In this document: positions 22,042 to 64,000 of the stretch, one piece after another
How the letters are laid out: each line of letters begins with the position of its first letter
How positions within the stretch are numbered: position 1 is the stretch's first letter
DNA from: Candidatus Peribacterales bacterium
Lineage (GTDB): Bacteria > Patescibacteriota > Gracilibacteria > Peribacterales > Peribacteraceae
NCBI GenBank assembly: GCA_020058765.1
Contig: JAGVDM010000003.1
Coordinates: 52,019-116,018 of the forward strand
Length of the DNA stretch: 64,000 nucleotides
Direction of reading: 5' to 3'
Notes under the pieces: model-generated
Databases searched by the model: none
Told to the model about the DNA's origin: nothing
The model's input: the letters and a program-made list of their open reading frames with translations, nothing else
Program-made: the position numbers and the translations under genes

Positions 22042-23673
22042 TTACGTATCCGAACGAGCCCACGCCATGAACTGCTCCAATGGCAGCTCGTAGAGGTACT
22101 CCGTTCCTGCTTCTACAACAGAACGAACTGTGCGACGCTCAACATCGATCGTGAAAGAGAACGTACGATCACGTGTTGGTGTGCTGATCACGATTTTCCG
22201 TACATCCGCTGTGGTATCCCCGGTAATGCTCACCTCTGTGGTGAGCGTGAACATCGCTCCTGCCTCTGCGAGTAGTGCAAGAACCTTCGCCTCCACCTCT
22301 GCATCGGGCACTGTTCTTTCGGCGAGCTGTTCGGGCGCAGTGGATACCCCCGGCTTGGCAGATTCAGATGGCTCCACAGGTGGCGCGATATCCTGCATCT
22401 GCACCGGCGCAGTGCTGACCGCATCCAATCGCTGCCAACGATCCAGTATGGCAAGCGATGCCGGATCCAGCGCCCGCACATGCGTACTAACCACATCGAT
22501 TGCCCTGGCTGCCAATGCATGTGCGCGCTCTGGGTATTCCATAGCCATGAGCGCTTCTATGTGGCCATCCATTTGGTGCACAAACGGCTCCAGGAGCACA
22601 AGCGGATCAGCAGTATCGAGGAGTGTATCTGCTGCACGCTCGGCCCAGCGTCGCAGCGCCATGTCGCCCAACGGATCGGAGCGAACATCAGCACCAGGGA
22701 GCATGAGCGTATCAATGAGGAGTGCGTCTCCTGTGAGGAGCGGTTCAGCGAACACGCCTGTCACTGCGCTCACCCGTGGGTGGAGCGTGCACAGGAGCCA
22801 GAGATCTGGATTGCGTGCGAGAGCCGCGGCAAGAGGAGCTGCACTATCCGCATGATCAGCGGACTGTAGCAGCAACCCAGCAAGTGCCTGCTGTACATCT
22901 GGCAAATGGAGTGATGCCGCCAAAATCCCCTGCTGCAATTGTTCTGTAACCGTATCGCTGCGCCGTGCGTCTACGGCAGCAGCAAGATTGCGTAAGGCGT
23001 CCTGCCGATGCGCATTGTCTGTACGCTCACGAGCGCCAGGGAGCAGCGGCACCGAGGACGGAAGGAGTAACGAAAGACCGCCGCTCGATTGCACATGCGG
23101 CTCGGCAGCTACCGGGAGCAACGCACTATTGTGTACCTGTTCCTGCAGCGTGGAACGAGGGATCGCGCTCGTTTCTCGTGCACGCAGCCAAATCGGCAGA
23201 CCTGCACCCTCGGATGGAAGAGGAGACCCATCACTCCGCCATTGCCTTCCTGGTGCCACGAGCACGCGCTTCTCGTGTATGGAGACGAGTGCGGGTGTGG
23301 AAATCGCTGCTACCACAATGGCATCGTCGTACCGCGTGAGGTGCACAAGGCCATCGAGCGCCTGCACCGTACGACCATTGCCGAGTGATACATGCAGCAA
23401 CCCATCTGCAGCGAACAAGCCAGAACCGTCGTAGAGCTCGGGGGTGCCTTCGTGCATTTCTACTGTTGCTCCATCGTAGAGGAGCGCACGTTGACCACCC
23501 GGGAGCGGTAGTGCCCAAAGATCTTCGAGGATCTCCACCGACCGTGGAGGCTGTGCATCTGCACCAAGCAATGCCCCGCGCAGGGCACCGTGTGCCGTGG
23601 GGAGCAACACCGCGAGTGCAAACAACGGAATTGCCACGAAGTGCCGGTGTGAACGTGGGCGTTTCTCAGACAT
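22042..23673 (-). CDS. Hypothetical secreted / membrane-anchored protein
   Basis: 543-aa ORF with the N-terminal anchor FVAIPLFALAVLLPTAHG. The family is not recognised. Confidence 0.6.
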   Translation of the reverse strand: MSEKRPRSHRHFVAIPLFALAVLLPTAHGALRGALLGADAQPPRSVEILEDLWALPLPGGQRALLYDGATVEMHEGTPELYDGSGLFAADGLLHVSLGNGRTVQALDGLVHLTRYDDAIVVAAISTPALVSIHEKRVLVAPGRQWRSDGSPLPSEGAGLPIWLRARETSAIPRSTLQEQVHNSALLPVAAEPHVQSSGGLSLLLPSSVPLLPGARERTDNAHRQDALRNLAAAVDARRSDTVTEQLQQGILAASLHLPDVQQALAGLLLQSADHADSAAPLAAALARNPDLWLLCTLHPRVSAVTGVFAEPLLTGDALLIDTLMLPGADVRSDPLGDMALRRWAERAADTLLDTADPLVLLEPFVHQMDGHIEALMAMEYPERAHALAARAIDVVSTHVRALDPASLAILDRWQRLDAVSTAPVQMQDIAPPVEPSESAKPGVSTAPEQLAERTVPDAEVEAKVLALLAEAGAMFTLTTEVSITGDTTADVRKIVISTPTRDRTFSFTIDVERRTVRSVVEAGTEYLYELPLEQFMAWARSDT

Positions 23674-23768
23674 AGAATGTGTGTTTTTCCTCTAATTGTA
23701 GCAAAAAAACGCATTTCCGGCAATTCGCCATACTTGCCGAAATCTTTGAAAAGTTGCACGATGAATGT

Positions 23769-53408: not shown

Positions 53409-53437
53409 TTGAAGAGAAAACCGAAAAATGGTACAAT
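53409..53437 (+). promoter_or_regulatory. Near-consensus extended -10 promoter (TTGAAG-17 nt-TGgTACAAT) abutting the start codon
   Basis: TTGAAG at 53409-53414 and TACAAT at 53432-53437, preceded by TG. ATG codons are at 53441 and 53444, the second being 6 nt after the -10 element. Confidence 0.45.
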
Positions 53438-53440
53438 ACT

Positions 53441-54346
53441 ATGATGTTTTCTCAGCGATTCACCGCTGCAGTCCTTGCACTCTCCGTCCTCGTAGCGGGG
53501 TGTGCGACCACGTCCGATTCCCCATCCCCCGTTGGGGGGACTGGTGCCGTGACTGGTTCTGGGGCAGTGCAATCCACGGATGAAGTGCCTGCGCTCGACG
53601 TTACTGGTGCAAAAGCTGGTGCGTATATTTCGCTCTTGCTCAACGGACCCACAGTGAAGCTGGGTGGCCCACGCCCTCCAGCGACGCTCGGCGTATACGT
53701 GAGCCTCTATTTGGCGCAGGGCGCATTCATACCAGTACAAGCCGCAATGCAGGGCATTGAAGTGCTAGAGCAGATCCTCCTTGGGCAATCCACACCCGAG
53801 TCGAGTGAAACGTTTGCGCTCCTCAAGGAATTTGGATCCATCCTGCAGGTGGATGTACTTGATAGCATGAATCGCAGCAGGGATCGTGCGGAAGCGCTCG
53901 ATACATACGTTCGATCGCTGCGAAACATTATGGAACTTGCGAGCCGAAAAATTACCGAGCTTCAAACACTGGAGGAAAACCTAGATGAGCGGCAGAAGGC
54001 GCAACGCACCGTTGTGCGCGACATGGAACGTGTCGTGCAGAATGCACTGCGTGAAGAAGACTTCGAACTGGCAGGGGGAAAACAAGAAGAACTGGTGAAA
54101 GCAAAGTCGTCGCTCGCGGCTTTGGAAGCCGAATTCGAGCAAACAGGCGACATTCTGGATCCCTATGAACGTTTGATGGAAGTCGCCGAGGAGCGCGCGA
54201 ATGCCATTGAGCAGAACCGCGCAATCCTCATTGCCGGCCTACAAGTGGTAGAAGTGCCTGGAATTGACGATTTGGAGCTGATTAACGATGGCGGAGGCTG
54301 GCGAGAGCGCATCCTCCCGAGCAATACCGTTTCCCCAAGCCGATAG
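53441..54346 (+). CDS. Coiled-coil lipoprotein encoded upstream of the VirB4-like ATPase
   Basis: Lipobox LVAGC with a long heptad-like C-terminal half. Confidence 0.65.
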   Translation: MMFSQRFTAAVLALSVLVAGCATTSDSPSPVGGTGAVTGSGAVQSTDEVPALDVTGAKAGAYISLLLNGPTVKLGGPRPPATLGVYVSLYLAQGAFIPVQAAMQGIEVLEQILLGQSTPESSETFALLKEFGSILQVDVLDSMNRSRDRAEALDTYVRSLRNIMELASRKITELQTLEENLDERQKAQRTVVRDMERVVQNALREEDFELAGGKQEELVKAKSSLAALEAEFEQTGDILDPYERLMEVAEERANAIEQNRAILIAGLQVVEVPGIDDLELINDGGGWRERILPSNTVSPSR

Positions 54347-54397
54347 GCGCATCTGGATTGATCCAGAAGCCAAAAAAAGGTATAATCAAGAGATTCA

Positions 54398-56767
54398 ATG
54401 ACACCAAACACACAGCAAAAACCGGCACAGTACCCCATTCTACTTGCAGCTATTGATGACTTGCTCGGTCTGCATACGCAGGCCACGCGCGTGCTCAAGG
54501 GTGCTACAGATGGTGATTCTCTGACAGCAGATGAAAAGGACATTCTGCGGCTCTATGAAGAAGGCTTGCAGAAAACTCTGGATCTGATCGCTCCTGCAGG
54601 CATGCAGGTGCTCAATGACGAGCTCATTATCAATGAGCGCCATTCGCGCACACTCTACGTGCACAACTGGCCAAACTACCTGTACCCGAACTGGCTCTCG
54701 TCGGTGATCAACTTCGATGCAGAGATGGACATCTCGCATTACATCTACCCATCGAGCAACAAGATCATCATGAAGATGCTGCGCAAGAAGGTAACAGAAA
54801 TGCGCGCATCGATCCGTATGTTGGAACAGCGCGGCATCGTTCGCGACCCGGTGCTGGAAGCAGCACTGCAGGACGCAGAAGAACTGCGTGACCTGCTCGC
54901 TCGCGGCCGCGAGAAGCTGTTCCAGTTCGGTATGTACATCACGCTCTACGAGCAAGATCCTAAAGCACTCAAAAAGCTGCAGACGGATATAGAATCGCTC
55001 CTGGGCGGACGATTGGTGCTCACAAAGCCAGCACACTTCCAAATGGAACATGCTTGGGTGAGCACATTACCGTTTTGTTTGGATGAGCTGGAAATCACAC
55101 GCAACATGAACACCTCGCCGCTTGCGACGAGCTTCCCCTTCTCTAGCTCCGACCTTACATCTGATCACGGCATTCTGTACGGCATCAACCGTCACAACGA
55201 TAGCTTGGTGATCTTTGATCGCTTCGATCTGGCCAATGCCAACGCCACGGTGTTCGCTACTTCCGGTGCGGGTAAATCGTTTACCGTGAAACTCGAAATT
55301 CTGCGCTCGATGATGTTCGGCACGGAAGTGTTCGTCATCGACCCAGAAAACGAATACGTCGAACTAGCCGAAGCAGTGGGCGGCACACATATTCCCATTT
55401 CGCTACAGAGCTCGCACCGCATCAATCCATTCGATCTGCCACATGCAGTGCGCGGAGAAGATGCTCAACCTGGTGAGATTCTGCGATCCGCAGTCATCAA
55501 CCTCCACGGCCTCTTTAAGCTCATGCTTGGTACGCTCACCCCAGCGGAGGACGGTGTGCTCGACAAGGCAATCCTCGATACATACGCCTTGAAGAAGATC
55601 AAAATGGACACGCCGAACCCGCACGATTTTGAGCCGCCAACCATGCACGAGCTCGTAGATGTGCTCACCACAACAGATGGCGGCGAACACATGGCGCAAA
55701 CACTCAAGAAGTACACCGAAGGAAGCTACTCTGGGGTCTTCGATCGCCAGACAAATATTGAGCTCAACAAGCAGATGGTGGTGTTCCAGATCCGCGACCT
55801 AGAAGAACAGCTCCGTCCGATCGCCATGTACGTGGTGCTCAACTTTCTCTGGAACCGCATCCGTGCAGACTTCAAGCGCCGCATTATGATCATCGACGAG
55901 GCGTGGAACCTCATGCAGCACGAGGACTCCGCACGCTTCCTCTATGGTCTCATTAAACGCGCACGTAAGTACTTCCTTGGTATTACTACCATCACGCAGG
56001 ACGTGGAAGACTTCGTGAATTCCCCGTACGGTAAACCGATTATTACCAACGCCGCATTCCAGATTCTGCTCAAGCAATCTGCATCGGCAGTGGATAACCT
56101 ACAGAAGCTCTTCTACCTCACCGACGGTGAGAAGTATCTGCTGCTCAACTCCGATGTAGGACAAGGGTTGTTCTTCGCAGGCAACAAGCACGTGGCGATC
56201 CAGATTGTAGCGAGCCCACAGGAAGAAAAGCTGATTACAACGAAGCCAGATGAAGTGCTCAAGAAGCAGAAAGAGAAAGAGGAGCAGAAGCGCATCGCAG
56301 AAATCGATGCTGCTGCTGCAAAAGCAGGGAAGGGTGAGGAATCCAATGAAAAAAAGAAGTCCGTTGCCCCCACCAAGACAGCAGCAAAGCCTTCGACAAA
56401 GAAAGACGAGGATCGCCCACCAAATGCACGCGTGATGGAAGTGGTAAAAGCAATGCAAGGCGGTGATCACACACCGCATGTGGAACGAAAGATCATGCTT
56501 TCGGAATCAGAAGAGGAAAATGAGCGCATCTTCAATGAGGCTGAGCGCAAGCACGCAGAAGAAGAGAAGCTTGCAGCACAAAAGGCTGCCGAAGCAGAGC
56601 GTGTTACCAAAGAAGCAGCTGCGAAGAAGAATACTGCTCCAAAGCCCGCTGCAAAGGACTCTACAAAGTCCTCCACAAAGGACTCTGCATCGACGAACCC
56701 CTACCTCGCACAACCCAAAAAGCAGCCGCCAAAAGATGAACAAAAGAAAGAGGGTGCAGCGTCTTAG
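54398..56767 (+). CDS. virB4: VirB4/TrbE/TraC-like type IV secretion ATPase with a K/E/A-rich disordered tail
   Basis: Walker A ATSGAGKSFTVK and Walker B RIMIIDEAWNLM (the DEAW signature). The last ~190 aa are low complexity. Confidence 0.8.
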   Translation: MTPNTQQKPAQYPILLAAIDDLLGLHTQATRVLKGATDGDSLTADEKDILRLYEEGLQKTLDLIAPAGMQVLNDELIINERHSRTLYVHNWPNYLYPNWLSSVINFDAEMDISHYIYPSSNKIIMKMLRKKVTEMRASIRMLEQRGIVRDPVLEAALQDAEELRDLLARGREKLFQFGMYITLYEQDPKALKKLQTDIESLLGGRLVLTKPAHFQMEHAWVSTLPFCLDELEITRNMNTSPLATSFPFSSSDLTSDHGILYGINRHNDSLVIFDRFDLANANATVFATSGAGKSFTVKLEILRSMMFGTEVFVIDPENEYVELAEAVGGTHIPISLQSSHRINPFDLPHAVRGEDAQPGEILRSAVINLHGLFKLMLGTLTPAEDGVLDKAILDTYALKKIKMDTPNPHDFEPPTMHELVDVLTTTDGGEHMAQTLKKYTEGSYSGVFDRQTNIELNKQMVVFQIRDLEEQLRPIAMYVVLNFLWNRIRADFKRRIMIIDEAWNLMQHEDSARFLYGLIKRARKYFLGITTITQDVEDFVNSPYGKPIITNAAFQILLKQSASAVDNLQKLFYLTDGEKYLLLNSDVGQGLFFAGNKHVAIQIVASPQEEKLITTKPDEVLKKQKEKEEQKRIAEIDAAAAKAGKGEESNEKKKSVAPTKTAAKPSTKKDEDRPPNARVMEVVKAMQGGDHTPHVERKIMLSESEEENERIFNEAERKHAEEEKLAAQKAAEAERVTKEAAAKKNTAPKPAAKDSTKSSTKDSASTNPYLAQPKKQPPKDEQKKEGAAS

Positions 56768-57855
56768 CGTGCATCTTCGATGAGTGGTGTCTCGGCTACC
56801 TGATCTTCCACCACACGCCAGCGTAGTTCTGGCTGCAGTTTGCCAGAGAGCGCAAACCCAGCAGCTTTACGGTGCCCACCGCCATGGAAACGACTCGCCA
56901 TGGCAGCCACGTCTACATCATCACGCAGCGTACGGAGCGATCCTTTCACTTTGCCATCACGCTCAGAGAGGATGAGGGAGAAGCGCATACCAGGAACAGC
57001 ATTCACATAATCGATTGCCCCGGTGAGCTCGGAATAATCGGCGCCCGTGGCGCGGAAGTCCCCTTCTGTCACTGCGGAAATTGCTGCGCCCTCCTGCGTA
57101 ATGGAAATTTTCTCGAGCACGCGCCCCCACAACTTGAGCGTGCTGACTTTTGCCGTGCGGAACACGGCATTCACAATTGCCTGGCGCCTGGCACCGGCGC
57201 GGAGCAAGCGCGCAACCGTACGATACACGCCAGCTGTAGTGTTGCTATGGAGCAATCCACCCGTGTCGGTATACACGCCCGTGAGTAGACACGTGGCAAT
57301 GTCGCTCGAAATCGGCCACTCGAGACGGTCCGCCAGGTCCACAATGATTTCGCAGGCAGACGCAGCATTGGGCACGATGATGTTCACCGTTCCAAACCGA
57401 GTATTCGTTGGGTGGTGGTCGATGTTCACACTCCTTGTAGTAGGATCAAAAAGCTGCGGATGGCTTTCGTGCATTTCGGTGAGCTTGGGCTCAGCACTAT
57501 CTACGAAAACGACGGCATCCCCTTCCAGAAGCGTTGGTGGCCCTTGCACACGTCCGGAACCCGGGAGAAAGCGGAATACATCGGGCACGGGATCCACGCA
57601 GTGCACCGTCACCCGAGTGTTGGGGTACGCCTGCTCGAGGAGTGCGCCAATACCAAGCAAAGCGCCGATCGCATCGCCGTCTGGATTGCGATGGCAAATG
57701 CACAACAGTCGCTTCGCCGTGGAGAGGAGTTCCTGCGCCGACCGTGCGTCTTCGATCTGCACCATAAGGGAGCGAGGGTAACGCTGACACGCAAAGCCGG
57801 CAATGCGCTGGAGTTGCGCACAATCCAAAGCTGTCGCATGACGAACGAACGCCAA
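56764..57855 (-). CDS. nrnA: DHH/DHHA1 phosphoesterase (NrnA-type oligoribonuclease / pAp phosphatase)
   Basis: HRNPDGDAIGA, the DHH block (IDHH), and the DHHA1 motif GGGHRKAAG. Confidence 0.85.
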   Translation of the reverse strand: MAFVRHATALDCAQLQRIAGFACQRYPRSLMVQIEDARSAQELLSTAKRLLCICHRNPDGDAIGALLGIGALLEQAYPNTRVTVHCVDPVPDVFRFLPGSGRVQGPPTLLEGDAVVFVDSAEPKLTEMHESHPQLFDPTTRSVNIDHHPTNTRFGTVNIIVPNAASACEIIVDLADRLEWPISSDIATCLLTGVYTDTGGLLHSNTTAGVYRTVARLLRAGARRQAIVNAVFRTAKVSTLKLWGRVLEKISITQEGAAISAVTEGDFRATGADYSELTGAIDYVNAVPGMRFSLILSERDGKVKGSLRTLRDDVDVAAMASRFHGGGHRKAAGFALSGKLQPELRWRVVEDQVAETPLIEDAR

Positions 57856-57867
57856 GGAGAATTACCC

Positions 57868-58188
57868 CTACGTAGCCTCGTCGAGCAACTGATCAATGCG
57901 CGACACTTTCTCGGCTACTCGGTCAACACGGAACCGAATGATCGGCGCGCGAAAACGCTGGAGCGCATGGAACAATGTCTTCTGGAACTCATCACGCTTC
58001 TCTTCCAAGTATGCCAAGGCGTCATTGGGCGACTGCAGTGCGCTAATGTACACGGTGGCGTACGAGCAATCTTTGGACACCGCCACCTCGGTAATGGTCA
58101 CAATACCGCAGCTTGGGGGACATTCGCGGAGTGCGGGCGAGATCACTTGCCGCACGGTAGTGCCGATTGTTTCGGGACGCGTCGCCAT
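57868..58188 (-). CDS. rbfA: Ribosome-binding factor A
   Basis: The KH-like core VTITEVAVSKDCSYATVYIS. The ATG at 58188 was chosen inside the longer ORF. Confidence 0.8.
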   Translation of the reverse strand: MATRPETIGTTVRQVISPALRECPPSCGIVTITEVAVSKDCSYATVYISALQSPNDALAYLEEKRDEFQKTLFHALQRFRAPIIRFRVDRVAEKVSRIDQLLDEAT

Positions 58189-58218
58189 GGAGTAGCAGCA
58201 TACTCTATGCTGTAGCCA

Positions 58219-59091
58219 ATGTCCGCACCGAAAACCGTTCTCTTCTGTGGCACGCCCGCCTTCGCCATCCCGGCGTTGCGCGCTGTGCACGCGTGTCCAG
58301 ATCTGCAGATCACCGCCGTCGTGACGCAGCCAGATCGACCGGTGGGACGCACGAAGGAACTCACTGCACCGCCAGTAAAGGATGTAGCACTGGAGCTTGG
58401 TCTCACAGTGCTTCAACCAGAACAGGTAAATACCGAATTGCCTGCCGTGCTCACAGAGCCACCGGATTACCTTGTCACCGTTGCCTACGGGGAACTCATC
58501 AAGGATGCACTACTTACGTTGCCACGCATTTCGCCAATCAATGTGCATCCGTCCCTGCTCCCCCGCTGGCGCGGCGCGTCCCCGCTGCAACACACGATCC
58601 TCGCGGGAGACACAGAAGCAGGCACCACCATCCAGGTAATGGGCGCCGAGCTAGATGCGGGCGACATCCTCGCACAGGAACGCGTTGCTGTGCTGCCACG
58701 GGAAACAACAGCAACGCTCCACGACAAGCTCGCCACACTCTCTGCAACACTCCTTGTGCAGGTACTCACACATCCGCTCTCCCCCACGCCACAATCTGCG
58801 AATGGCATAACCTTCTGCAAAAAGCTCGCGCGTGAGAACGGTATTGTGGATCCGACCACGATGGATGCGGAAACAATTGATCGCACCGTGCGCGCACTCC
58901 ACCCGTGGCCGGGTGTGAGTTGCTCAGTGCAGGGGGAAGAGGTGAAATTGCACGCAACAAGCCTGGAGCCGCAAAGCTCCGCGCTCGCGCTCCCCTGCAG
59001 CAACGGAACAACACTCTACGTGCTGCAGATTCAATCTGCCGGCAAGCGCGTAATGACAGGCGAAGAGTGGCAGCGAGGACGCAGGCAGTGA
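58219..59091 (+). CDS. fmt: Methionyl-tRNA formyltransferase
   Basis: VLFCGTPAFAIPAL, INVHPSLLPRWRGASP, and a C-terminal OB-like domain. Confidence 0.92.
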   Translation: MSAPKTVLFCGTPAFAIPALRAVHACPDLQITAVVTQPDRPVGRTKELTAPPVKDVALELGLTVLQPEQVNTELPAVLTEPPDYLVTVAYGELIKDALLTLPRISPINVHPSLLPRWRGASPLQHTILAGDTEAGTTIQVMGAELDAGDILAQERVAVLPRETTATLHDKLATLSATLLVQVLTHPLSPTPQSANGITFCKKLARENGIVDPTTMDAETIDRTVRALHPWPGVSCSVQGEEVKLHATSLEPQSSALALPCSNGTTLYVLQIQSAGKRVMTGEEWQRGRRQ

Positions 59092-59122
59092 CCCCGAACG
59101 TGAACTGCGTATACTTGGGGCA

Positions 59123-60421
59123 ATGCGCATTGCATCACTCCTGTTCTCTGCAGCGCTGCTGCTCCATCCATTTGCCGCACTGGCGGCACTGGATAGCGAC
59201 GGCGACGGCTTGGAAGACACGGAGGAAATCACACGTGGCACCGACCCACAGAACGCCGATACCGACGGCGGCGGTGAGGCCGACGGTGCGGAAATTGCCA
59301 ATGGACGCGATCCGAACGTGCAGGAGGATGACCTCACATTCGACCGCGATAACGACACGCTCACCAATGGCGAGGAAGAGGCAATGGGCACCGACCCGTC
59401 CTCTGCCGATACAGATGAAGACGGAACGAACGACGCAGACGATCGCTATCCACTCGATCGGGAATACAGCCGCGATGAGGACGAAGACGGCATGCCCGAC
59501 GAATACGAAGAAAAGTATAACTTCTCCCCTACGCTCCGCGCAGATGCAGAAGAGGATACCGATGGAGATGGCCTCAAGAATATCGACGAGTTCATCTACG
59601 GCACAGACCCTATGAATACCGACACCGATAATGACGGCGTCATTGATGGCGAAGAAGTAGAAAAAGGCACAGAACCACTCGAGAATCCCTGCTTGGAATT
59701 CGGTTCACCCAAGCAACCGTTTGCAGATGTATCGAAGCACTGGGCGGAGGGATATGCCGTGCGACTGCAACGCGTGAAAGTGCAACCAACAGGCGCACGT
59801 TTGGCTGATGGATACGCCGAAGGCGATGTGCGGCTTTTTGCACCAGACCGAGCGATCTCACGGTTCGAATTACTGAAGCTCGCGCTCTTGAGTAGCTGCA
59901 TAACAGTGGAGGATACGCAGGAACCTGCAACAGTCTTCACCGATGTACCACTCGCTGTTCGCCCTCGCGAACCAGCAGATCGTGCTGAGCGACGCCGCAT
60001 TATTTACAGCGCAATGCGTGAAGGCATTGTGCAAGGCTACGAAGATGGTACGTTTCGACCCGATGCTCCAGTGAACCGTGCCGAGGCTGTGAAGATCTTG
60101 CTCGCTGCAGCACGGCTCAAACCCTTAAGTGACTACGATATTCCCGCACCACAATTTAGCGACGTACCAGTGGATGCGTGGTTTCGCGAATCAATCGAGC
60201 TCGCAGTGGGATACGACCTGCTTACTGGCTACCCAGATGGCACATTCCGACCGGAGCAGTCGATCACCCGCGCTGAGGCGGGGAAGCTCGTGTACTTGCT
60301 CATGCTTATCAACCCGCATGTGAACGGCTATGTGCTCCCGGCGGATGGCCTCGGGCTCACAGACACAGCAGAGGAAGACATGAAACACCTTGAACCCACT
60401 ACAGAAGATTCTGCCGAATAA
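59123..60421 (+). CDS. Secreted protein with thrombospondin-type-3 Ca-binding repeats and three SLH domains
   Basis: Signal peptide, at least five D.D.DG..D motifs (DSDGDGLEDTEE, DTDGGGEADG, DTDEDGTNDADD, DTDGDGLKNIDE, DTDNDGVIDGEE), and three FxDV...W...A SLH-like segments. Confidence 0.8.
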   Translation: MRIASLLFSAALLLHPFAALAALDSDGDGLEDTEEITRGTDPQNADTDGGGEADGAEIANGRDPNVQEDDLTFDRDNDTLTNGEEEAMGTDPSSADTDEDGTNDADDRYPLDREYSRDEDEDGMPDEYEEKYNFSPTLRADAEEDTDGDGLKNIDEFIYGTDPMNTDTDNDGVIDGEEVEKGTEPLENPCLEFGSPKQPFADVSKHWAEGYAVRLQRVKVQPTGARLADGYAEGDVRLFAPDRAISRFELLKLALLSSCITVEDTQEPATVFTDVPLAVRPREPADRAERRRIIYSAMREGIVQGYEDGTFRPDAPVNRAEAVKILLAAARLKPLSDYDIPAPQFSDVPVDAWFRESIELAVGYDLLTGYPDGTFRPEQSITRAEAGKLVYLLMLINPHVNGYVLPADGLGLTDTAEEDMKHLEPTTEDSAE

Positions 60422-60435
60422 ATCAGGCAGCGCAA

Positions 60436-60454
60436 AGCCGGGCATAGCCCGGCT
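60436..60454. terminator. Short hairpin between convergent genes
   Basis: AGCCGGGC-ata-GCCCGGCT. Confidence 0.4.
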
Positions 60455-60479
60455 GGAGCGCTTCCACCGTAGAGAAATA

Positions 60480-60809
60480 TTAGACGTGGCTCTGCATTTC
60501 CTGGAAGGCCTGGATGAATTTTTCCAGATCTTCGGAGTCGAACATAATCGTCGTCTTCTGGCCACCGCGAGACTTCTCGCTCACCTTGAAGAACTTGCCG
60601 TTCCCGGACTGCTTTAAGTCGATGTAGAACGTGCGCTGGCGCCCGTGGATAGTGATGCTGTGCACTTCGTCAGCAAAACGGCGATCGCCACCTCCGCCAC
60701 CTGCTGGTGGGCGAGGTGCCTGACTGCGCTGCTGTGGCGCTTCGCCAGAAGAATGCTGGTCGCCCTCATCGGACGGCATGCCTGTGAGCTCTGCCATTGG
60801 ATCAAACAT
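60480..60809 (-). CDS. PUR-alpha-like (DUF3276-type) single-stranded nucleic-acid-binding protein
   Basis: The segment TFYIDLKQSGNGKFFKVSEKSRGGQKTTIMFDSEDLEKFIQAF fits a PUR repeat. The start is uncertain (60809 or 60797; the ORF opens at 60863). Confidence 0.6.
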   Translation of the reverse strand: MFDPMAELTGMPSDEGDQHSSGEAPQQRSQAPRPPAGGGGGDRRFADEVHSITIHGRQRTFYIDLKQSGNGKFFKVSEKSRGGQKTTIMFDSEDLEKFIQAFQEMQSHV

Positions 60810-60911
60810 AGAAAGATTGGGTAGGAAAGTAATCAACGCTCCCTTCGCCGGTCGTCCTCGCACATGCGTGCTGAAAATGGCTGTTACTGAGAGCGCTATA
60901 AGACTACTCCG

Positions 60912-62474
60912 TCACGCCTTTGGTGCAACCGAGTCCTCGATTTTCGGGAACAGGATTGCGGGCTCACCCACGGTTTTCCAATCCTTCTGACTGCCCCACT
61001 GCTTCATGTCGTCAGTAATCACAAAATCGTGATCAAGCATCTTGGCGGCATATGACACACCGAGCTGCGTACTGATTTTCTGCGCAGTTTCCGGCATGAA
61101 TGGCAGCAGCATGAGAGCTATGTGACGCAGACATTCCGCAAAGTTCCCGAGCGTCTGGATGCGTTTTTCTACATCGTCTTTTATTGTCCAAGGAGCGCGA
61201 TCATTAAATGCACCATTCAAGATTGATACTGCTTCGGTCAGGCTTTGCATCGCTGCATGTAACTCGAAAGTATCCATTTGTTGAGCAAAGTCATCCCACA
61301 GCTTCTTTGTCTGCGATACAGACTCCTCATCGGTCGGAATCTGTACAACACCACCATCTTTCCGCAATAATACGAGTGCACGATTCAACATATTCCCAAG
61401 TTGGTTTCTCAACTTGGCATCGTACATTTCCTCGAGCCGCTTCCAGCTAAAATCCCCATCTCGCCCAACCGGAACTTCGTGGCTCAGGTAGAACCGCAGT
61501 GCATCCACGCCGTATTTGTCGATCACATCTTGAGGCACCACCACGTTGCCGAGGCTTTTGCTCATCTTCTCGCCTTCGCTGGTAAGGAACCCGTGTACGA
61601 GCAAGCGATCCGGAATGCGTACACCTGCTGCTTTGAGCATGCTCGGCCAAATGAGCGCATGGAAACGCGTGATGTCCTTGCCAATCACATGTGTGACTAC
61701 TGCATCGTCCCACCATTCACGCTCTTCGTTCTTCGTAAAATAGCCGAGGCCAGAAATGTAATTGGTGAGTGCATCGCACCACACGTACATCACATGATCT
61801 TCGTCACCTGGCACATCAATGCCCCATGCGAGGCTTGTCTTTGGGCGCGAGAATGACACATCTTCGAGCCCCTGATCCAAGAGCGACAGTGTTTCGTTCG
61901 CACGGAAATCGGGCACGATGCGGTACTCTTCCTTGCCCCAATCTTTCGTGAGCAAACTCCGGAGATTTTCGGTGTCTTTGGAGAGCAGGAAGAACCAGTT
62001 TTCCTCAGTCACTTCATCCGGAATGGTGTGGTGCACTGGACACTTGCCGTCTTCTAGATCTTTCTTGGGCATAAAGCGCTCGCAGCCGGCGCAATAGAGC
62101 CCTGTGTAGCTGCGCTTCTCGAGCATGCCGGCATCTTTGAGCTTGTTCCACAGCGCCTGCACCGTTGCCTTGTGGCCGCTGTCCGCAGACGTGCGGATGA
62201 ATTTGTCGTAGGAAATACCCAACCGTGTATAGAGATCCTGAAACAACACAACGTTGCGATCCACGAGTGCACGCGGGGTAACCCCCTCTTCCTCGGCTTT
62301 GCGCTGGATCTTGATGCCGTGCTCGTCGGTACCAATCTGGAAACGCACCTCATCTCCACGTAAACGGAACCAACGTGCACACACGTCGGCGAGCACCTTC
62401 TCCAGCACGTGCCCCATGTGCGGAGCAGCGTTGGGGTAGTCGATCGCGGTGGTGATGTACTGGCGCTTGCCCAT
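60912..62474 (-). CDS. metG: Methionyl-tRNA synthetase
   Basis: YPNAAPHMGH (HIGH motif), KMSKSLGN, and a CxxC..C..H zinc knuckle. Confidence 0.95.
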   Translation of the reverse strand: MGKRQYITTAIDYPNAAPHMGHVLEKVLADVCARWFRLRGDEVRFQIGTDEHGIKIQRKAEEEGVTPRALVDRNVVLFQDLYTRLGISYDKFIRTSADSGHKATVQALWNKLKDAGMLEKRSYTGLYCAGCERFMPKKDLEDGKCPVHHTIPDEVTEENWFFLLSKDTENLRSLLTKDWGKEEYRIVPDFRANETLSLLDQGLEDVSFSRPKTSLAWGIDVPGDEDHVMYVWCDALTNYISGLGYFTKNEEREWWDDAVVTHVIGKDITRFHALIWPSMLKAAGVRIPDRLLVHGFLTSEGEKMSKSLGNVVVPQDVIDKYGVDALRFYLSHEVPVGRDGDFSWKRLEEMYDAKLRNQLGNMLNRALVLLRKDGGVVQIPTDEESVSQTKKLWDDFAQQMDTFELHAAMQSLTEAVSILNGAFNDRAPWTIKDDVEKRIQTLGNFAECLRHIALMLLPFMPETAQKISTQLGVSYAAKMLDHDFVITDDMKQWGSQKDWKTVGEPAILFPKIEDSVAPKA

Positions 62475-62530
62475 GCGTAAGACAGCCTAGCGACGTTGCG
62501 CCAGACCGTGAAGCGGAAACACGAAGCTGA

Positions 62531-62881
62531 TTACGCCGTCGCATCTGCCACGAACTGCTCCACGAACATCACGAATCCCTCGCCGAGAATGGCAAGAGCA
62601 ACACCAACCGCCGCAGCGATCATAATGTTCTTTCCTTCGTTCCGTCCTTCGTCGCTCCCCCCGGAAGTCACCATTTTGAACGCACCCCATAGGAAGAACA
62701 CCACCGCAGCACCGCCGATGACTTCGGAAACGATATCGATCACGCGCACAGCAAACTGAATAAGGAATGCACTCCCCGCTCCGCAACCTGGGTGCAATGT
62801 CTCGCAGTATTGCTGGTAAATAAAATCTTCTGCCTGCGCAGACGGGATGAGTGAAGCCAATAATGAAAGTAGTGTGAACAT
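62531..62881 (-). CDS. VirB2/TrbC-like pilin (third gene of the pilin operon)
   Basis: Signal peptide ..PSAQA, then a TM helix, the loop SGGSDEGRNEGKN, and a second TM helix. TAATG overlap with the upstream gene. Confidence 0.6.
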   Translation of the reverse strand: MFTLLSLLASLIPSAQAEDFIYQQYCETLHPGCGAGSAFLIQFAVRVIDIVSEVIGGAAVVFFLWGAFKMVTSGGSDEGRNEGKNIMIAAAVGVALAILGEGFVMFVEQFVADATA

Positions 62882-63459
62882 TAGAAATTCAAATTTACAA
62901 CAGCTCCTACAATCGGACGCGACATGTTGATGAGGATACCTCCAATAATTGCCCAGAGCAGCATGGTACGAGCTTTGTCCGTTTCTTCACTCTTGCCGCG
63001 ACCGAGTACAAGGCGCAACCCTGCGACCATCGCCACAATGGTGAAGGTGATATTGAACATCACGAGCATGAAGTCCACTGCAATAGTCGCAATCGCGAGG
63101 AATGGATTGCCACCACCCGAAGCTGCATTCGCACGCCCCACAGTAAAGGAAATGATCGTCTGTGAGAGCAGCGCTAGAGCAAAACCGCCGAGCGCATACA
63201 AAATCGAATTGCGTCCTTGGCTGATCTTGGATTCATCACCGCCGCTAATGAGCATTTGCGCGCCTCCCCACACCACAAATACGACAGCTGCTGCCGCGAC
63301 AACAGCTACAAGAAGGTCTGCCACACTCCCCAGGATTGCCGGTGCGTTGTTCTCCGCCGAGCACCCACCTACGAGCGTACAGGCAAGACTTGCCCCACCT
63401 GCCGCAAACGTTGGCGTTGCGTGCAGGAGTCCCCCGAGGATGAGGAAGAGTACAAACAT
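62881..63459 (-). CDS. Tandem-fused double VirB2/TrbC-like pilin
   Basis: Two consecutive TM-loop-TM modules, with loops SGGDESKISQGRN and GRGKSEETDKART. Confidence 0.6.
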   Translation of the reverse strand: MFVLFLILGGLLHATPTFAAGGASLACTLVGGCSAENNAPAILGSVADLLVAVVAAAAVVFVVWGGAQMLISGGDESKISQGRNSILYALGGFALALLSQTIISFTVGRANAASGGGNPFLAIATIAVDFMLVMFNITFTIVAMVAGLRLVLGRGKSEETDKARTMLLWAIIGGILINMSRPIVGAVVNLNF

Positions 63460-63461
63460 GA

Positions 63462-63857
63462 TTAGTCAAAGAAGAGATCGTTCAGAATTCGTAGAATTGT
63501 TCCAGTAAATGACAGAACGACAATGCCGAGAATGGCACCGATCATCTTCGCCTTTCCAGTGGCGCGTTTATCGGCCTGATCGCTCGAAATCATGATCAAG
63601 AAGCCGCCGTAGAGCATCCAGAGAATACAAATACCCACGGCAACGCTGTAGAGCCACGGGAGCGTGGAGTTGAAGTAGTTGAACCACGTGGTCAGCCCAG
63701 GTCCAATGGTAATTTCATTCGGGCCGCTGATCGGTTCCAAAAGTGGCACCTTTCCGCGCACCATTGCATCGTCAGCAAATGCGCTCGGTGGCAGTGTCCC
63801 CGCCATTGCAGCAAGCCTGAAGGCCACGGAACGGATGTGCTTCCAAAAAGAAATCAT
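63462..63857 (-). CDS. VirB2/TrbC-like pilin (first gene of the pilin operon)
   Basis: Signal peptide ..PSAFA, then a TM helix, the loop SSDQADKRATGKAK, and a second TM helix. The ATG is at 63857; the ORF-track start at 63860 is TTG. Confidence 0.6.
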   Translation of the reverse strand: MISFWKHIRSVAFRLAAMAGTLPPSAFADDAMVRGKVPLLEPISGPNEITIGPGLTTWFNYFNSTLPWLYSVAVGICILWMLYGGFLIMISSDQADKRATGKAKMIGAILGIVVLSFTGTILRILNDLFFD

Positions 63858-63862
63858 CAAAA

Positions 63863-63873
63863 TATTGTACCAT
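63863..63873 (-). promoter_or_regulatory. Extended -10 element ATGGTACAATA, 5 nt upstream of the pilin-operon ATG
   Basis: The minus strand reads ATGGTACAATAttttgATGATTTCT. The same 11-mer at the same spacing occurs at 53428-53438. Confidence 0.45.
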
Positions 63874-63984
63874 AAACACCCCGCAAATACGAGGCCAAAA
63901 CAACGCTCTACAAGCCGATATAGCCAAGAAAGAGGCTTCGTGCTTGCATCCGCGAGGCAGTCTCCGTAGCATCTGGCTCTGCGC

Positions 63985-64000
63985 GCGGATGTAGCTCAGT
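63985..64000 (+). tRNA. 5' start of a tRNA or of another tRNA-5'-half mimic, cut by the window edge
   Basis: GCGGATG-TA-GCTCAGT fits an acceptor strand plus the start of a D arm. Its identity cannot be determined. Confidence 0.35.

What the first reader, a model, noticed from the sequence alone, without database searches (positions are those of the whole stretch)
53409..53446. The VirB4 operon and the pilin operon share a near-identical promoter/start module suggesting leaderless mRNAs
The two regions read:
- 53428-53452: ATGGTACAATAct**ATG**ATGtTTTCT
- minus strand 63873-63849: ATGGTACAATAtt**TTG**ATGaTTTCT

The 11-mer ATGGTACAATA contains an extended -10 element, TGnTACAAT. In both cases an ATG begins 6 nt after the TACAAT hexamer, which is about where transcription would start. 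There is no room for a Shine-Dalgarno sequence, so the transcripts would be leaderless. The similarity runs for about 21 of 25 nt into the first codons (MMFS.. and MMIS..). An 11-mer recurring by chance in 128 kb of two-strand sequence is improbable (expectation about 0.03). Here it sits at the same offset in front of the two functionally linked type-IV-secretion-like operons, which lie 9 kb apart on opposite strands. That suggests a shared regulatory module.
Basis: seen in the sequence. Interest (0 to 1): 0.6.

Follow-up and report, generated by a model that had tools for sequence, protein, structure and literature searches.

The report
Consensus promoters abutting start codons
The two look-alike stretches are copies of this uncultured Peribacteria bacterium's standard strong promoter, placed so that the mRNA should begin at the start codon; this layout is common in the genome and family and is not a switch special to the secretion genes.

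Summary
ATGGTACAATA occurs only at 53428-53438 (+) and 63873-63863 (-), and the 25-nt stretches match at 22 positions. In both, an ATG (53444; 63857) starts at the 7th base after TACAAT.

- Genome-wide, 57 genes have a -10 hexamer exactly 6 nt before a start codon, against about 7 at other offsets.
- The layout recurs at the pilin gene in 25 of 29 related genomes and at the lipoprotein gene in 46 of 57 loci. The signal peptide begins at that codon.
- The 16S tail reads UUUCC, not CCUCC, and GGAGG is not enriched.

A T4SS-specific module is not supported.
- Matched positions follow the genome's core-promoter consensus (TGG-TACAAT, A-6, G-1, A+1) plus ATG.
- The 11-mer occurs 6 times and TGGTACAAT 13 times, including before a histidine kinase, a sortase and surface proteins.
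- The -35 regions differ. The sister species lacks the resemblance, and 20 genomes show no co-variation.
- One caveat: 4 of 11 gene-linked TGGTACAAT sites precede T4SS or type IV pilus genes.

This is a known mechanism in a lineage where I found no published description.

The parts
53409..53414 (+). -35 hexamer TTGAAG of the lipoprotein-gene promoter, 17 nt before the -10 hexamer
   Evidence: A TTG at -35..-33 is the family consensus for this promoter.
53429..53437 (+). Extended -10 element TGG-TACAAT (TG at 53429-53430, hexamer at 53432-53437)
   Evidence: It matches the commonest 9-mer among the genome's 69 TGnTAnAAT sites.
53438..53443 (+). Discriminator ACTATG. It holds an in-frame ATG (53441) that would lie upstream of the predicted transcript start.
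   Evidence: Consensus A at -6 and G at -1.
53444..54346 (+). Predicted transcription start on the A of ATG, and a 300-aa coiled-coil lipoprotein gene (MFSQRFTAAVLALSVLVAGC, lipobox LVAGC). No family assigned.
   Evidence: Orthologues precede virB4 in 57 Peribacteria loci. In 46 of them a start codon lies 5-11 nt (mostly 6-9) after a -10-like hexamer.
54381..54397 (+). virB4's own promoter: TATAAT (54381-54386), then caagaG|A. Predicted start at A 54393, giving the leader AUUCA before ATG 54398.
   Evidence: A hexamer followed by GA at the 6th/7th nt was found in 55 of 55 Peribacteria loci, with a TG extension in 45 of 55 (hexamer choice favoured GA).
54398..56767 (+). virB4-like ATPase gene (789 aa); codons 2-8 are CA-rich (ACACCAAACACACAGC)
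   Evidence: Pfam TraG P-loop/AAA_10. NCBIfam VirB4-like CD1110 family, 367 bits against a cut-off of 325. A+C in codons 2-10 is 0.74 in orthologues against 0.55 internally.
63864..63872 (-). Extended -10 element TGG-TACAAT of the pilin operon (hexamer at 63869-63864)
   Evidence: The family logo is TGC-TATAAT across 24 genera.
63858..63863 (-). Discriminator ATTTTG. It holds an in-frame TTG (63860-63858) upstream of the predicted start.
   Evidence: G at -1 and A at +1 are invariant in 24 related pilin promoters.
63878..63895 (-). -35 zone of the pilin promoter. It has no TTG; instead CTCG (63893-63890) is conserved. In this genome the zone can also fold as a terminator-like hairpin.
63462..63857 (-). 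Predicted start on the A of ATG (63857), and pilin gene 1 (131 aa; signal peptide ending ..SAFA|DD; T4SS_pilin domain)
62531..63459 (-). Pilin genes 2 (62881-63459) and 3 (62531-62881). Their start and stop codons overlap, so translation is probably coupled.
   Evidence: PF18895 at 44.3 and 32.3 bits against a cut-off of 26.6.

Best explanation
Both sites are housekeeping sigma-70-type core promoters that match this genome's consensus. That consensus is an A/T tract, TGG, TACAAT, a discriminator starting with A and ending with G, then an initiating A. RNA polymerase would start 7 nt after the hexamer. Here that base is the A of ATG at 53444 and at 63857, so the mRNAs begin with 5'-AUG and have no leader. 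Ribosomes would then start on the 5'-terminal AUG without Shine-Dalgarno pairing. The organism appears to have given up that pairing, because its 16S tail reads UUUCC instead of CCUCC. The products are a lipoprotein encoded just before virB4 and the first of three VirB2-like pilins. Their signal peptides begin at that AUG. The near-identity of the two stretches arises because both sit close to the same consensus, not from a dedicated shared operator. Shown here: the sequence, its genome-wide statistics and its conservation. Inferred: the transcription start and the mode of translation.
For: (1) The spacer histogram over 1006 called genes peaks sharply at 6 nt (57 genes against about 7 background), with a shoulder at 7-11 nt. 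The peak also appears without gene calls. (2) These promoters carry TTG at -35..-33, T at -17 and TG at -15/-14, which marks them as promoters rather than ribosome sites. (3) At the 13 TGGTACAAT sites: A-6 in 10, G-1 in 10, A+1 in 12, T+2 in 9. This accounts for nearly every matched position in the pair. (4) In 25 of 29 related genomes (24 genera in the logo), the pilin gene has TGnTAnAAT or TAnACT at 6, 8 or 10 nt before ATG. The 6th/7th bases are always G/A, so the start point is fixed and leaders are 0, 2 or 4 nt. (5) In 46 of 57 loci the lipoprotein start lies 5-11 nt (mostly 6-9) after a -10-like hexamer and opens a lipobox signal peptide. (6) Both promoters lie in divergent intergenic regions, and no other promoter-like site was found on their strands. 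(7) No Shine-Dalgarno system is apparent: the 16S tail is GGAACAUUUCCUUA, the tail varies across 25 genera, and GGAGG is not enriched. (8) The same 9-mer precedes a histidine kinase, a sortase, surface proteins and small unknown proteins. Leaderless candidates are not enriched for hydrophobic N-termini (p=0.42).
Against: The pair is the most similar of 1596 pairs of 6-nt-spacer promoters (22 of 25; the next best is 19). The shared TTTCT in codons 2-3 is not explained by the consensus. Four of 11 gene-linked TGGTACAAT sites precede T4SS or type IV pilus genes (Fisher p=1e-5, class boundaries drawn after the fact). G at -1 differs from the usual pyrimidine(-1)-purine(+1) start rule, so some transcripts may start one base earlier.
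Confidence: 0.78

Rival explanations
1. The shared stretch is a dedicated regulatory module, read by a specific factor or sigma variant, that co-regulates the T4SS-like and pilus apparatus and perhaps other surface proteins.
For: The pair is the most similar of 1596 promoter pairs. Four of 11 gene-linked TGGTACAAT sites precede virB4-region, pilin, VirD4-like and T2SSE genes, and others precede a sortase and secreted proteins. The exact 9-mer is kept at the pilin, VirD4 and DUF4215 genes in the sister species. The genome has four small sigma-like ORFs besides the primary one.
Against: Matched positions coincide with the general core-promoter consensus. I saw no dyad or extra conserved block shared by the two sites. 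The -35 regions differ: TTGAAG against CCTCGT. The 9-mer also precedes a histidine kinase and unknown cytoplasmic proteins. Other pilus and T4SS units use other variants. The sister species has TTGTACAAT-N9-GTG at the lipoprotein gene. There is no within-genome co-variation across 20 genomes (p=0.37; 0.51 without this genome).
Confidence: 0.12
2. The mRNAs have leaders from promoters further upstream. The TACAAT box next to the start codon is then a non-SD translation signal, or a chance match.
For: No start site has been mapped. This lineage uses other non-SD signals near start codons: CA-rich motifs are enriched about 2-3 fold at -13..-4 and +3..+8.
Against: The hexamers come with a TG extension, an upstream A/T tract and TTG at -35 with standard spacing. 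The 16S tail is not complementary to TACAAT. The spacer peak is one base wide at 6 nt, as expected for a fixed transcription start. No other promoter-like site was found in the 241-nt and 125-nt divergent spacers.
Confidence: 0.08

Closest known systems
Leaderless transcription units of Actinobacteria (Mycobacterium, Streptomyces) and Deinococcus-Thermus (GeneMarkS-2 'group C' genomes; from my own knowledge)
   Same: A -10 box (TANNNT) sits about 6-7 nt before an AUG or GUG, transcription starts on the start codon, and no Shine-Dalgarno sequence is used. A sizeable share of genes is built this way.
   Different: The lineage is a CPR bacterium (Peribacteraceae). The promoters are mostly extended -10 (TGn) with a conserved G(-1)A(+1). 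The organism's anti-SD itself is degenerate. I found no paper describing leaderless mRNAs in CPR.
Extended -10 (TGn) sigma-70 promoters of E. coli and Gram-positive bacteria (from my own knowledge)
   Same: TG at -15/-14 next to the -10 hexamer, and the -35 can be weak or missing, as at the pilin promoter.
   Different: Here the start point coincides with the start codon. The pilin promoter keeps a conserved CTCG in place of TTG at -36..-33 across genera.
SD-independent initiation in Bacteroidia such as Flavobacterium johnsoniae (from my own knowledge)
   Same: Genome-wide absence of Shine-Dalgarno use.
   Different: From my own knowledge, Bacteroidia keep the CCUCC sequence and mask it with ribosomal proteins. 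Here the sequence itself drifts (CCUCC, UCUCC, CUUCC, UUUCC), and its (C/U)UCC co-varies with a downstream GGA(G/A). bS21 is reported as often absent in Peregrinibacteria (PMC9297842).

Membership tests
Leaderless transcription unit | A -10 element ending about 6-7 nt before the start codon | tested here: met
   TACAAT ends 6 nt before ATG 53444 and ATG 63857.
Leaderless transcription unit | The arrangement is a positional signal genome-wide, not a single coincidence | tested here: met
   57 genes at a 6-nt spacer against about 7 background. The peak is also present in 60 loci from other Peribacteria genomes (about 0.53 Mb) and absent in Saccharibacteria-like loci.
Leaderless transcription unit | No Shine-Dalgarno sequence, and translation independent of one | tested here: met
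   There is no room for one. GGAGG is not enriched. The anti-SD reads UUUCC.
Leaderless transcription unit | The mRNA 5' end is mapped on the start codon | not testable with these tools
Extended -10 sigma-70 promoter | TG at -15/-14 directly upstream of a TAnnnT hexamer | tested here: met
   TGGTACAAT at both sites.
Extended -10 sigma-70 promoter | A -35 hexamer at 16-18 nt (optional for this class) | tested here: inconclusive
   TTGAAG at 17 nt on the + site. No canonical -35 on the pilin site, where CTCG is conserved instead.
Regulon-specific shared cis-element (operator or activator site) | Shared sequence beyond what the core promoter consensus explains | tested here: not met
   Matched positions follow the consensus at -16..+3. 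Only TTTCT in codons 2-3 is extra, and the sister species lacks it.
Regulon-specific shared cis-element (operator or activator site) | Restricted to functionally linked genes | tested here: inconclusive
   Enriched at T4SS and pilus genes (4 of 11, p=1e-5) but also at a histidine kinase, a sortase, surface proteins and unknowns. Other T4SS and pilus units lack it.
Regulon-specific shared cis-element (operator or activator site) | The two promoters co-vary within genomes across relatives | tested here: not met
   Permutation over 20 genomes gave p=0.37, and 0.51 without this genome.
Type IV secretion (conjugation-like) genes | VirB4-family ATPase above a curated cut-off | tested here: met
   NCBIfam NF045971, 367.4 bits against 325.
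Type IV secretion (conjugation-like) genes | VirB2/TrbC-like pilin domain | tested here: met
   PF18895 at 29.7, 44.3 and 32.3 bits against a cut-off of 26.6 for the three genes.

The most novel reading that the evidence does not exclude
Peribacteraceae as a family may have abandoned Shine-Dalgarno-guided initiation. On this reading the anti-SD drifts freely and is held in a small co-varying hairpin. Genes start either as leaderless or 2-8-nt-leader mRNAs from extended -10 promoters with a fixed G(-1)A(+1) start, or use CA-rich elements flanking the AUG. The exact-consensus promoters would be reserved for the cell-surface apparatus (T4SS-like pilins, VirB4, VirD4, a pilus ATPase, a sortase, large secreted proteins), forming a constitutive high-expression set for the episymbiotic lifestyle.
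Probability: 0.35. Interest if true: 0.6.

Novelty: new member of a known kind. Interest (0 to 1): 0.35.

Why it matters
Gene callers that expect a ribosome-binding site will misplace start codons in this lineage. Here they would add an extra M (MMFS, MMIS) or extend ORFs upstream. Knowing that promoters abut start codons gives exact N-termini and a usable promoter model for Peribacteria, which have no cultured member. It also shows how a CPR lineage with a degenerate anti-SD may start translation, and it supplies candidate strong promoters for future genetic tools. It does not reveal a new regulatory circuit for the T4SS-like genes.

Tried and rejected
- 5-mer enrichment upstream of starts against in-gene decoys: it was dominated by coding versus non-coding composition. 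It showed only that GGAGG is not enriched.
- Secretion link: hydrophobic N-termini are no commoner among leaderless candidates (51 of 173 against 120 of 457, p=0.42).
- Pilin-type -35 (CCTCG) as a regulon mark: about ten weak matches genome-wide, with only the T4SS pilin and the type IV pilin gene as notable hits. Not pursued.
- The terminator-like hairpin in the pilin -35 zone: by eye the arms do not pair consistently in relatives, so I treat the conservation as sequence, not structure.
- Lipoprotein identity: Pfam, NCBIfam and PDB sequence searches gave only coiled-coil noise.
- Literature: searches for leaderless mRNAs or anti-SD loss in CPR or Peribacteria found nothing specific.

Full report
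**Observation.** The 11-mer ATGGTACAATA lies at 53428-53438 on the + strand and 63873-63863 on the - strand. These are the only two hits in the window even with one mismatch allowed. The two 25-nt stretches agree at 22 positions. TACAAT ends at 53437 and 63864. The second in-frame start codon (ATG 53444, ATG 63857) begins at the 7th base after the hexamer, where bacterial RNA polymerase usually starts. The first one (ATG 53441, TTG 63860) is only 3 nt from the hexamer. The description is therefore correct.

**Setting.** The window is C9:52019-116018 of a 1.17-Mb, 54% G+C, 99%-complete genome.
- Relatives of its VirB4 protein come from MAGs titled Candidatus Peribacteria, Peribacteraceae or Peregrinibacteria, which belong to the CPR.
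- The + site precedes a 300-aa lipoprotein gene (lipobox LVAGC). This is followed by a VirB4-like ATPase gene (NCBIfam CD1110 family, above cut-off).
- The - site precedes three tandem T4SS_pilin (PF18895) genes with overlapping stop and start codons.
- Both promoters lie in divergent intergenic regions: 241 nt next to a minus-strand gene, and 125 nt next to a truncated plus-strand tRNA. Read-through from an upstream gene on the same strand is therefore excluded.
- The consensus scan finds TTGAAG-17-TACAAT with TG on the + site. It finds no other promoter-like site on either strand of interest.

**Is it a general feature?** Yes.
- In the whole genome the 11-mer occurs 6 times, TGGTACAAT 13 times and TGnTAnAAT 69 times.
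- I called 1006 genes with a simple caller and plotted the distance from TA.A[AC]T hexamers to candidate start codons. The histogram has a one-base-wide peak at 6 nt (57 genes against about 7 at other distances) and a shoulder at 7-11 nt (23, 31, 30, 19, 15).
- 173 genes are flagged, and roughly 125 of these are above background.
- The 6-nt-spacer promoters also carry TTG at -35..-33, T at -17 and TG at -15/-14. They are promoters, not ribosome sites.
- The same peak is present in 60 loci from other Peribacteria genomes (about 0.53 Mb) and absent from Saccharibacteria-like loci.

**No Shine-Dalgarno system.**
- The 16S 3' tail reads GGAACAUUUCCUUA, that is UUUCC where CCUCC is expected.
- GGAGG is not enriched before start codons.
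- Across 25 genera of the family the tail varies: CCUCC, UCUCC, CUUCC, UUUCC.

**Conservation of the two promoters.**
- Pilin gene: in 25 of 29 related genomes the orthologue has TGnTAnAAT or TAnACT at 6, 8 or 10 nt before an ATG that opens a signal peptide.
- In the 24-genus logo the 6th and 7th bases after the hexamer are always G and A. The 8-nt cases read ..cgAT-ATG and the 10-nt cases ..gATTT-ATG. The start point is thus fixed, and the leader is 0, 2 or 4 nt.
- Lipoprotein gene: it precedes virB4 in 57 Peribacteria loci. In 46 of them an ATG or GTG lies 5-11 nt (mostly 6-9) after a -10-like hexamer and opens a lipobox signal peptide.
- This is the strongest available support for leaderless or near-leaderless mRNAs.

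**Is it a shared T4SS module?** The evidence is mostly against.
- At the 13 TGGTACAAT sites the flanks have their own consensus: A at -6 (10 of 13), G at -1 (10), A at +1 (12), T at +2 (9). GA at the 6th/7th base occurs in 28 of 69 TGnTAnAAT sites, against a 6.6% dinucleotide background.
- This consensus, plus ATG, accounts for almost every matched position of the pair. Only TTTCT in codons 2-3 remains unexplained.
- The -35 regions differ, and each is conserved in its own way. The lipoprotein promoter has aTTG plus an A-tract. The pilin promoter has CTCG at -36..-33 plus a T-tract and TGC.
- In the sister species the pilin promoter is aTGGTACAATacttcgATG. The lipoprotein promoter there is aTTGTACAATgttctgataGTG.
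- Over 20 genomes the two promoters are no more alike within a genome than between genomes (p=0.37; 0.51 without this genome).
- The 9-mer also precedes a histidine kinase, a sortase, a DUF4215 cysteine-rich surface protein, an Asp-rich secreted protein and small unknown proteins.
- Leaderless candidates are not enriched for hydrophobic N-termini.

**What remains of the idea.**
- The pair is the most similar of 1596 pairs of 6-nt-spacer promoters: 22 of 25, with 19 the next best.
- Four of 11 gene-linked TGGTACAAT sites precede T4SS or type IV pilus genes: the lipoprotein/virB4 unit, the pilins, a VirD4-like coupling protein and a T2SSE ATPase. Fisher p is 1e-5, but I drew the class boundaries after seeing the data.
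- The 9-mer is retained at the pilin, VirD4 and DUF4215 genes in the sister species.
- Other pilus and T4SS units use other variants.
- I read this as selection for maximal promoter strength at abundantly made surface machinery. A dedicated factor is not excluded.

**An operon detail.** virB4 has its own promoter: TATAAT at 54381-54386, then caagaG|Attca, then ATG.
- A hexamer followed by GA at the 6th/7th base was found in all 55 Peribacteria loci examined, though my choice of hexamer favoured GA.
- 45 of the 55 have a TG extension.
- The start codon is usually 10-14 nt after the hexamer.
- The promoter in the finding is therefore first of all the lipoprotein gene's promoter.

**Mechanism and comparison with known systems.** Primary-sigma holoenzyme binds the extended -10 element. 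The -35 helps at the + site and is largely dispensable at the - site. Transcription starts at the A seven bases downstream, giving 5'-AUG mRNAs that ribosomes can decode without a leader.
- This works like leaderless genes of Actinobacteria and Deinococcus-Thermus. Three of the four features that define such units were met here. The fourth, a mapped 5' end, could not be tested.
- I found no paper describing this for CPR or Peribacteria.
- Earlier notes of this scan on other Peribacteria genomes report the same architecture. They are not independent evidence.

**Verdict.** The leaderless reading is well supported but unproven. A T4SS-specific module is not supported. This is a new member of a known kind, of moderate interest.

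Noticed in passing
G000 contig C7:613-690 (locus L130); loci L113-L138: The 16S rRNA 3' tail reads GGAACAUUUCCUUA, not ..CACCUCCUUA. Across 25 Peribacteraceae genera the anti-SD core varies (CCUCC, UCUCC, CUUCC, UUUCC). Its (C/U)UCC pairs with a downstream GGA(G/A) across the loop UUACCAG. One pair co-varies: U-A in 14, C-G in 9, unpaired in 2.
   Followed up: partly
window 54381-54420 (+): virB4 has a promoter of its own, conserved in all 55 Peribacteria loci examined, with a 4-8-nt leader. Its first about 9 codons are CA-rich at the RNA level (A+C 0.74 against 0.55 internally) while the amino acids vary.
   Followed up: partly
genome-wide; for example window about 23670-23703 (-), G000 C9:75721: Genes with leaders behind TGnTAnAAT promoters have very short leaders (about 20-30 nt). 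An AAACACACA-like element lies 3-10 nt before the ATG. CACAC/ACACA is enriched about 2-3 fold at -13..-4 and +3..+8 around start codons. It is not complementary to the 16S tail.
   Followed up: partly
window 63878-63895 (-); G000 C7:79754 (+): Pilin promoters in many of the 24 genera keep CTCG at -36..-33 instead of TTG. The type IV pilin gene of this genome has the same CCTCG before its TAGAAT box. In this genome the zone also scores as a terminator-like hairpin.
   Followed up: partly
window 53444-63857; for example G033:C8, G047:C20, G024:C1, G023:C3, G011:C3, G041:C2, G048:C4, G052:C2: The lipoprotein/virB4 unit and the pilin operon lie about 10 kb apart and converge on each other in at least eight genera. 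In this window a DHH-family gene, fmt, an SLH-domain protein gene and the methionyl-tRNA synthetase gene lie between them. I did not check the genes between them in the other genera.
   Followed up: no
window 63983-64000 (+): The 5' end of a tRNA gene (GCGCGGATGTAGCTCAGT...) is cut off by the end of the window and contig. It diverges from the pilin promoter.
   Followed up: no
G000 genome-wide: There are two flavours of -10 box next to start codons. TAnAAT has A at the 7th base in 43 of 75 and TTG at -35. TAnACT has no clear base preference at the 7th position and no clear -35. This may reflect two promoter classes, or more false positives in the second.
   Followed up: no
G000 C6:58787 (+) and C7:45517 (-): Two paralogous small proteins of unknown function (116 and 115 aa) both sit behind exact TGGTACAAT promoters.
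   Followed up: no
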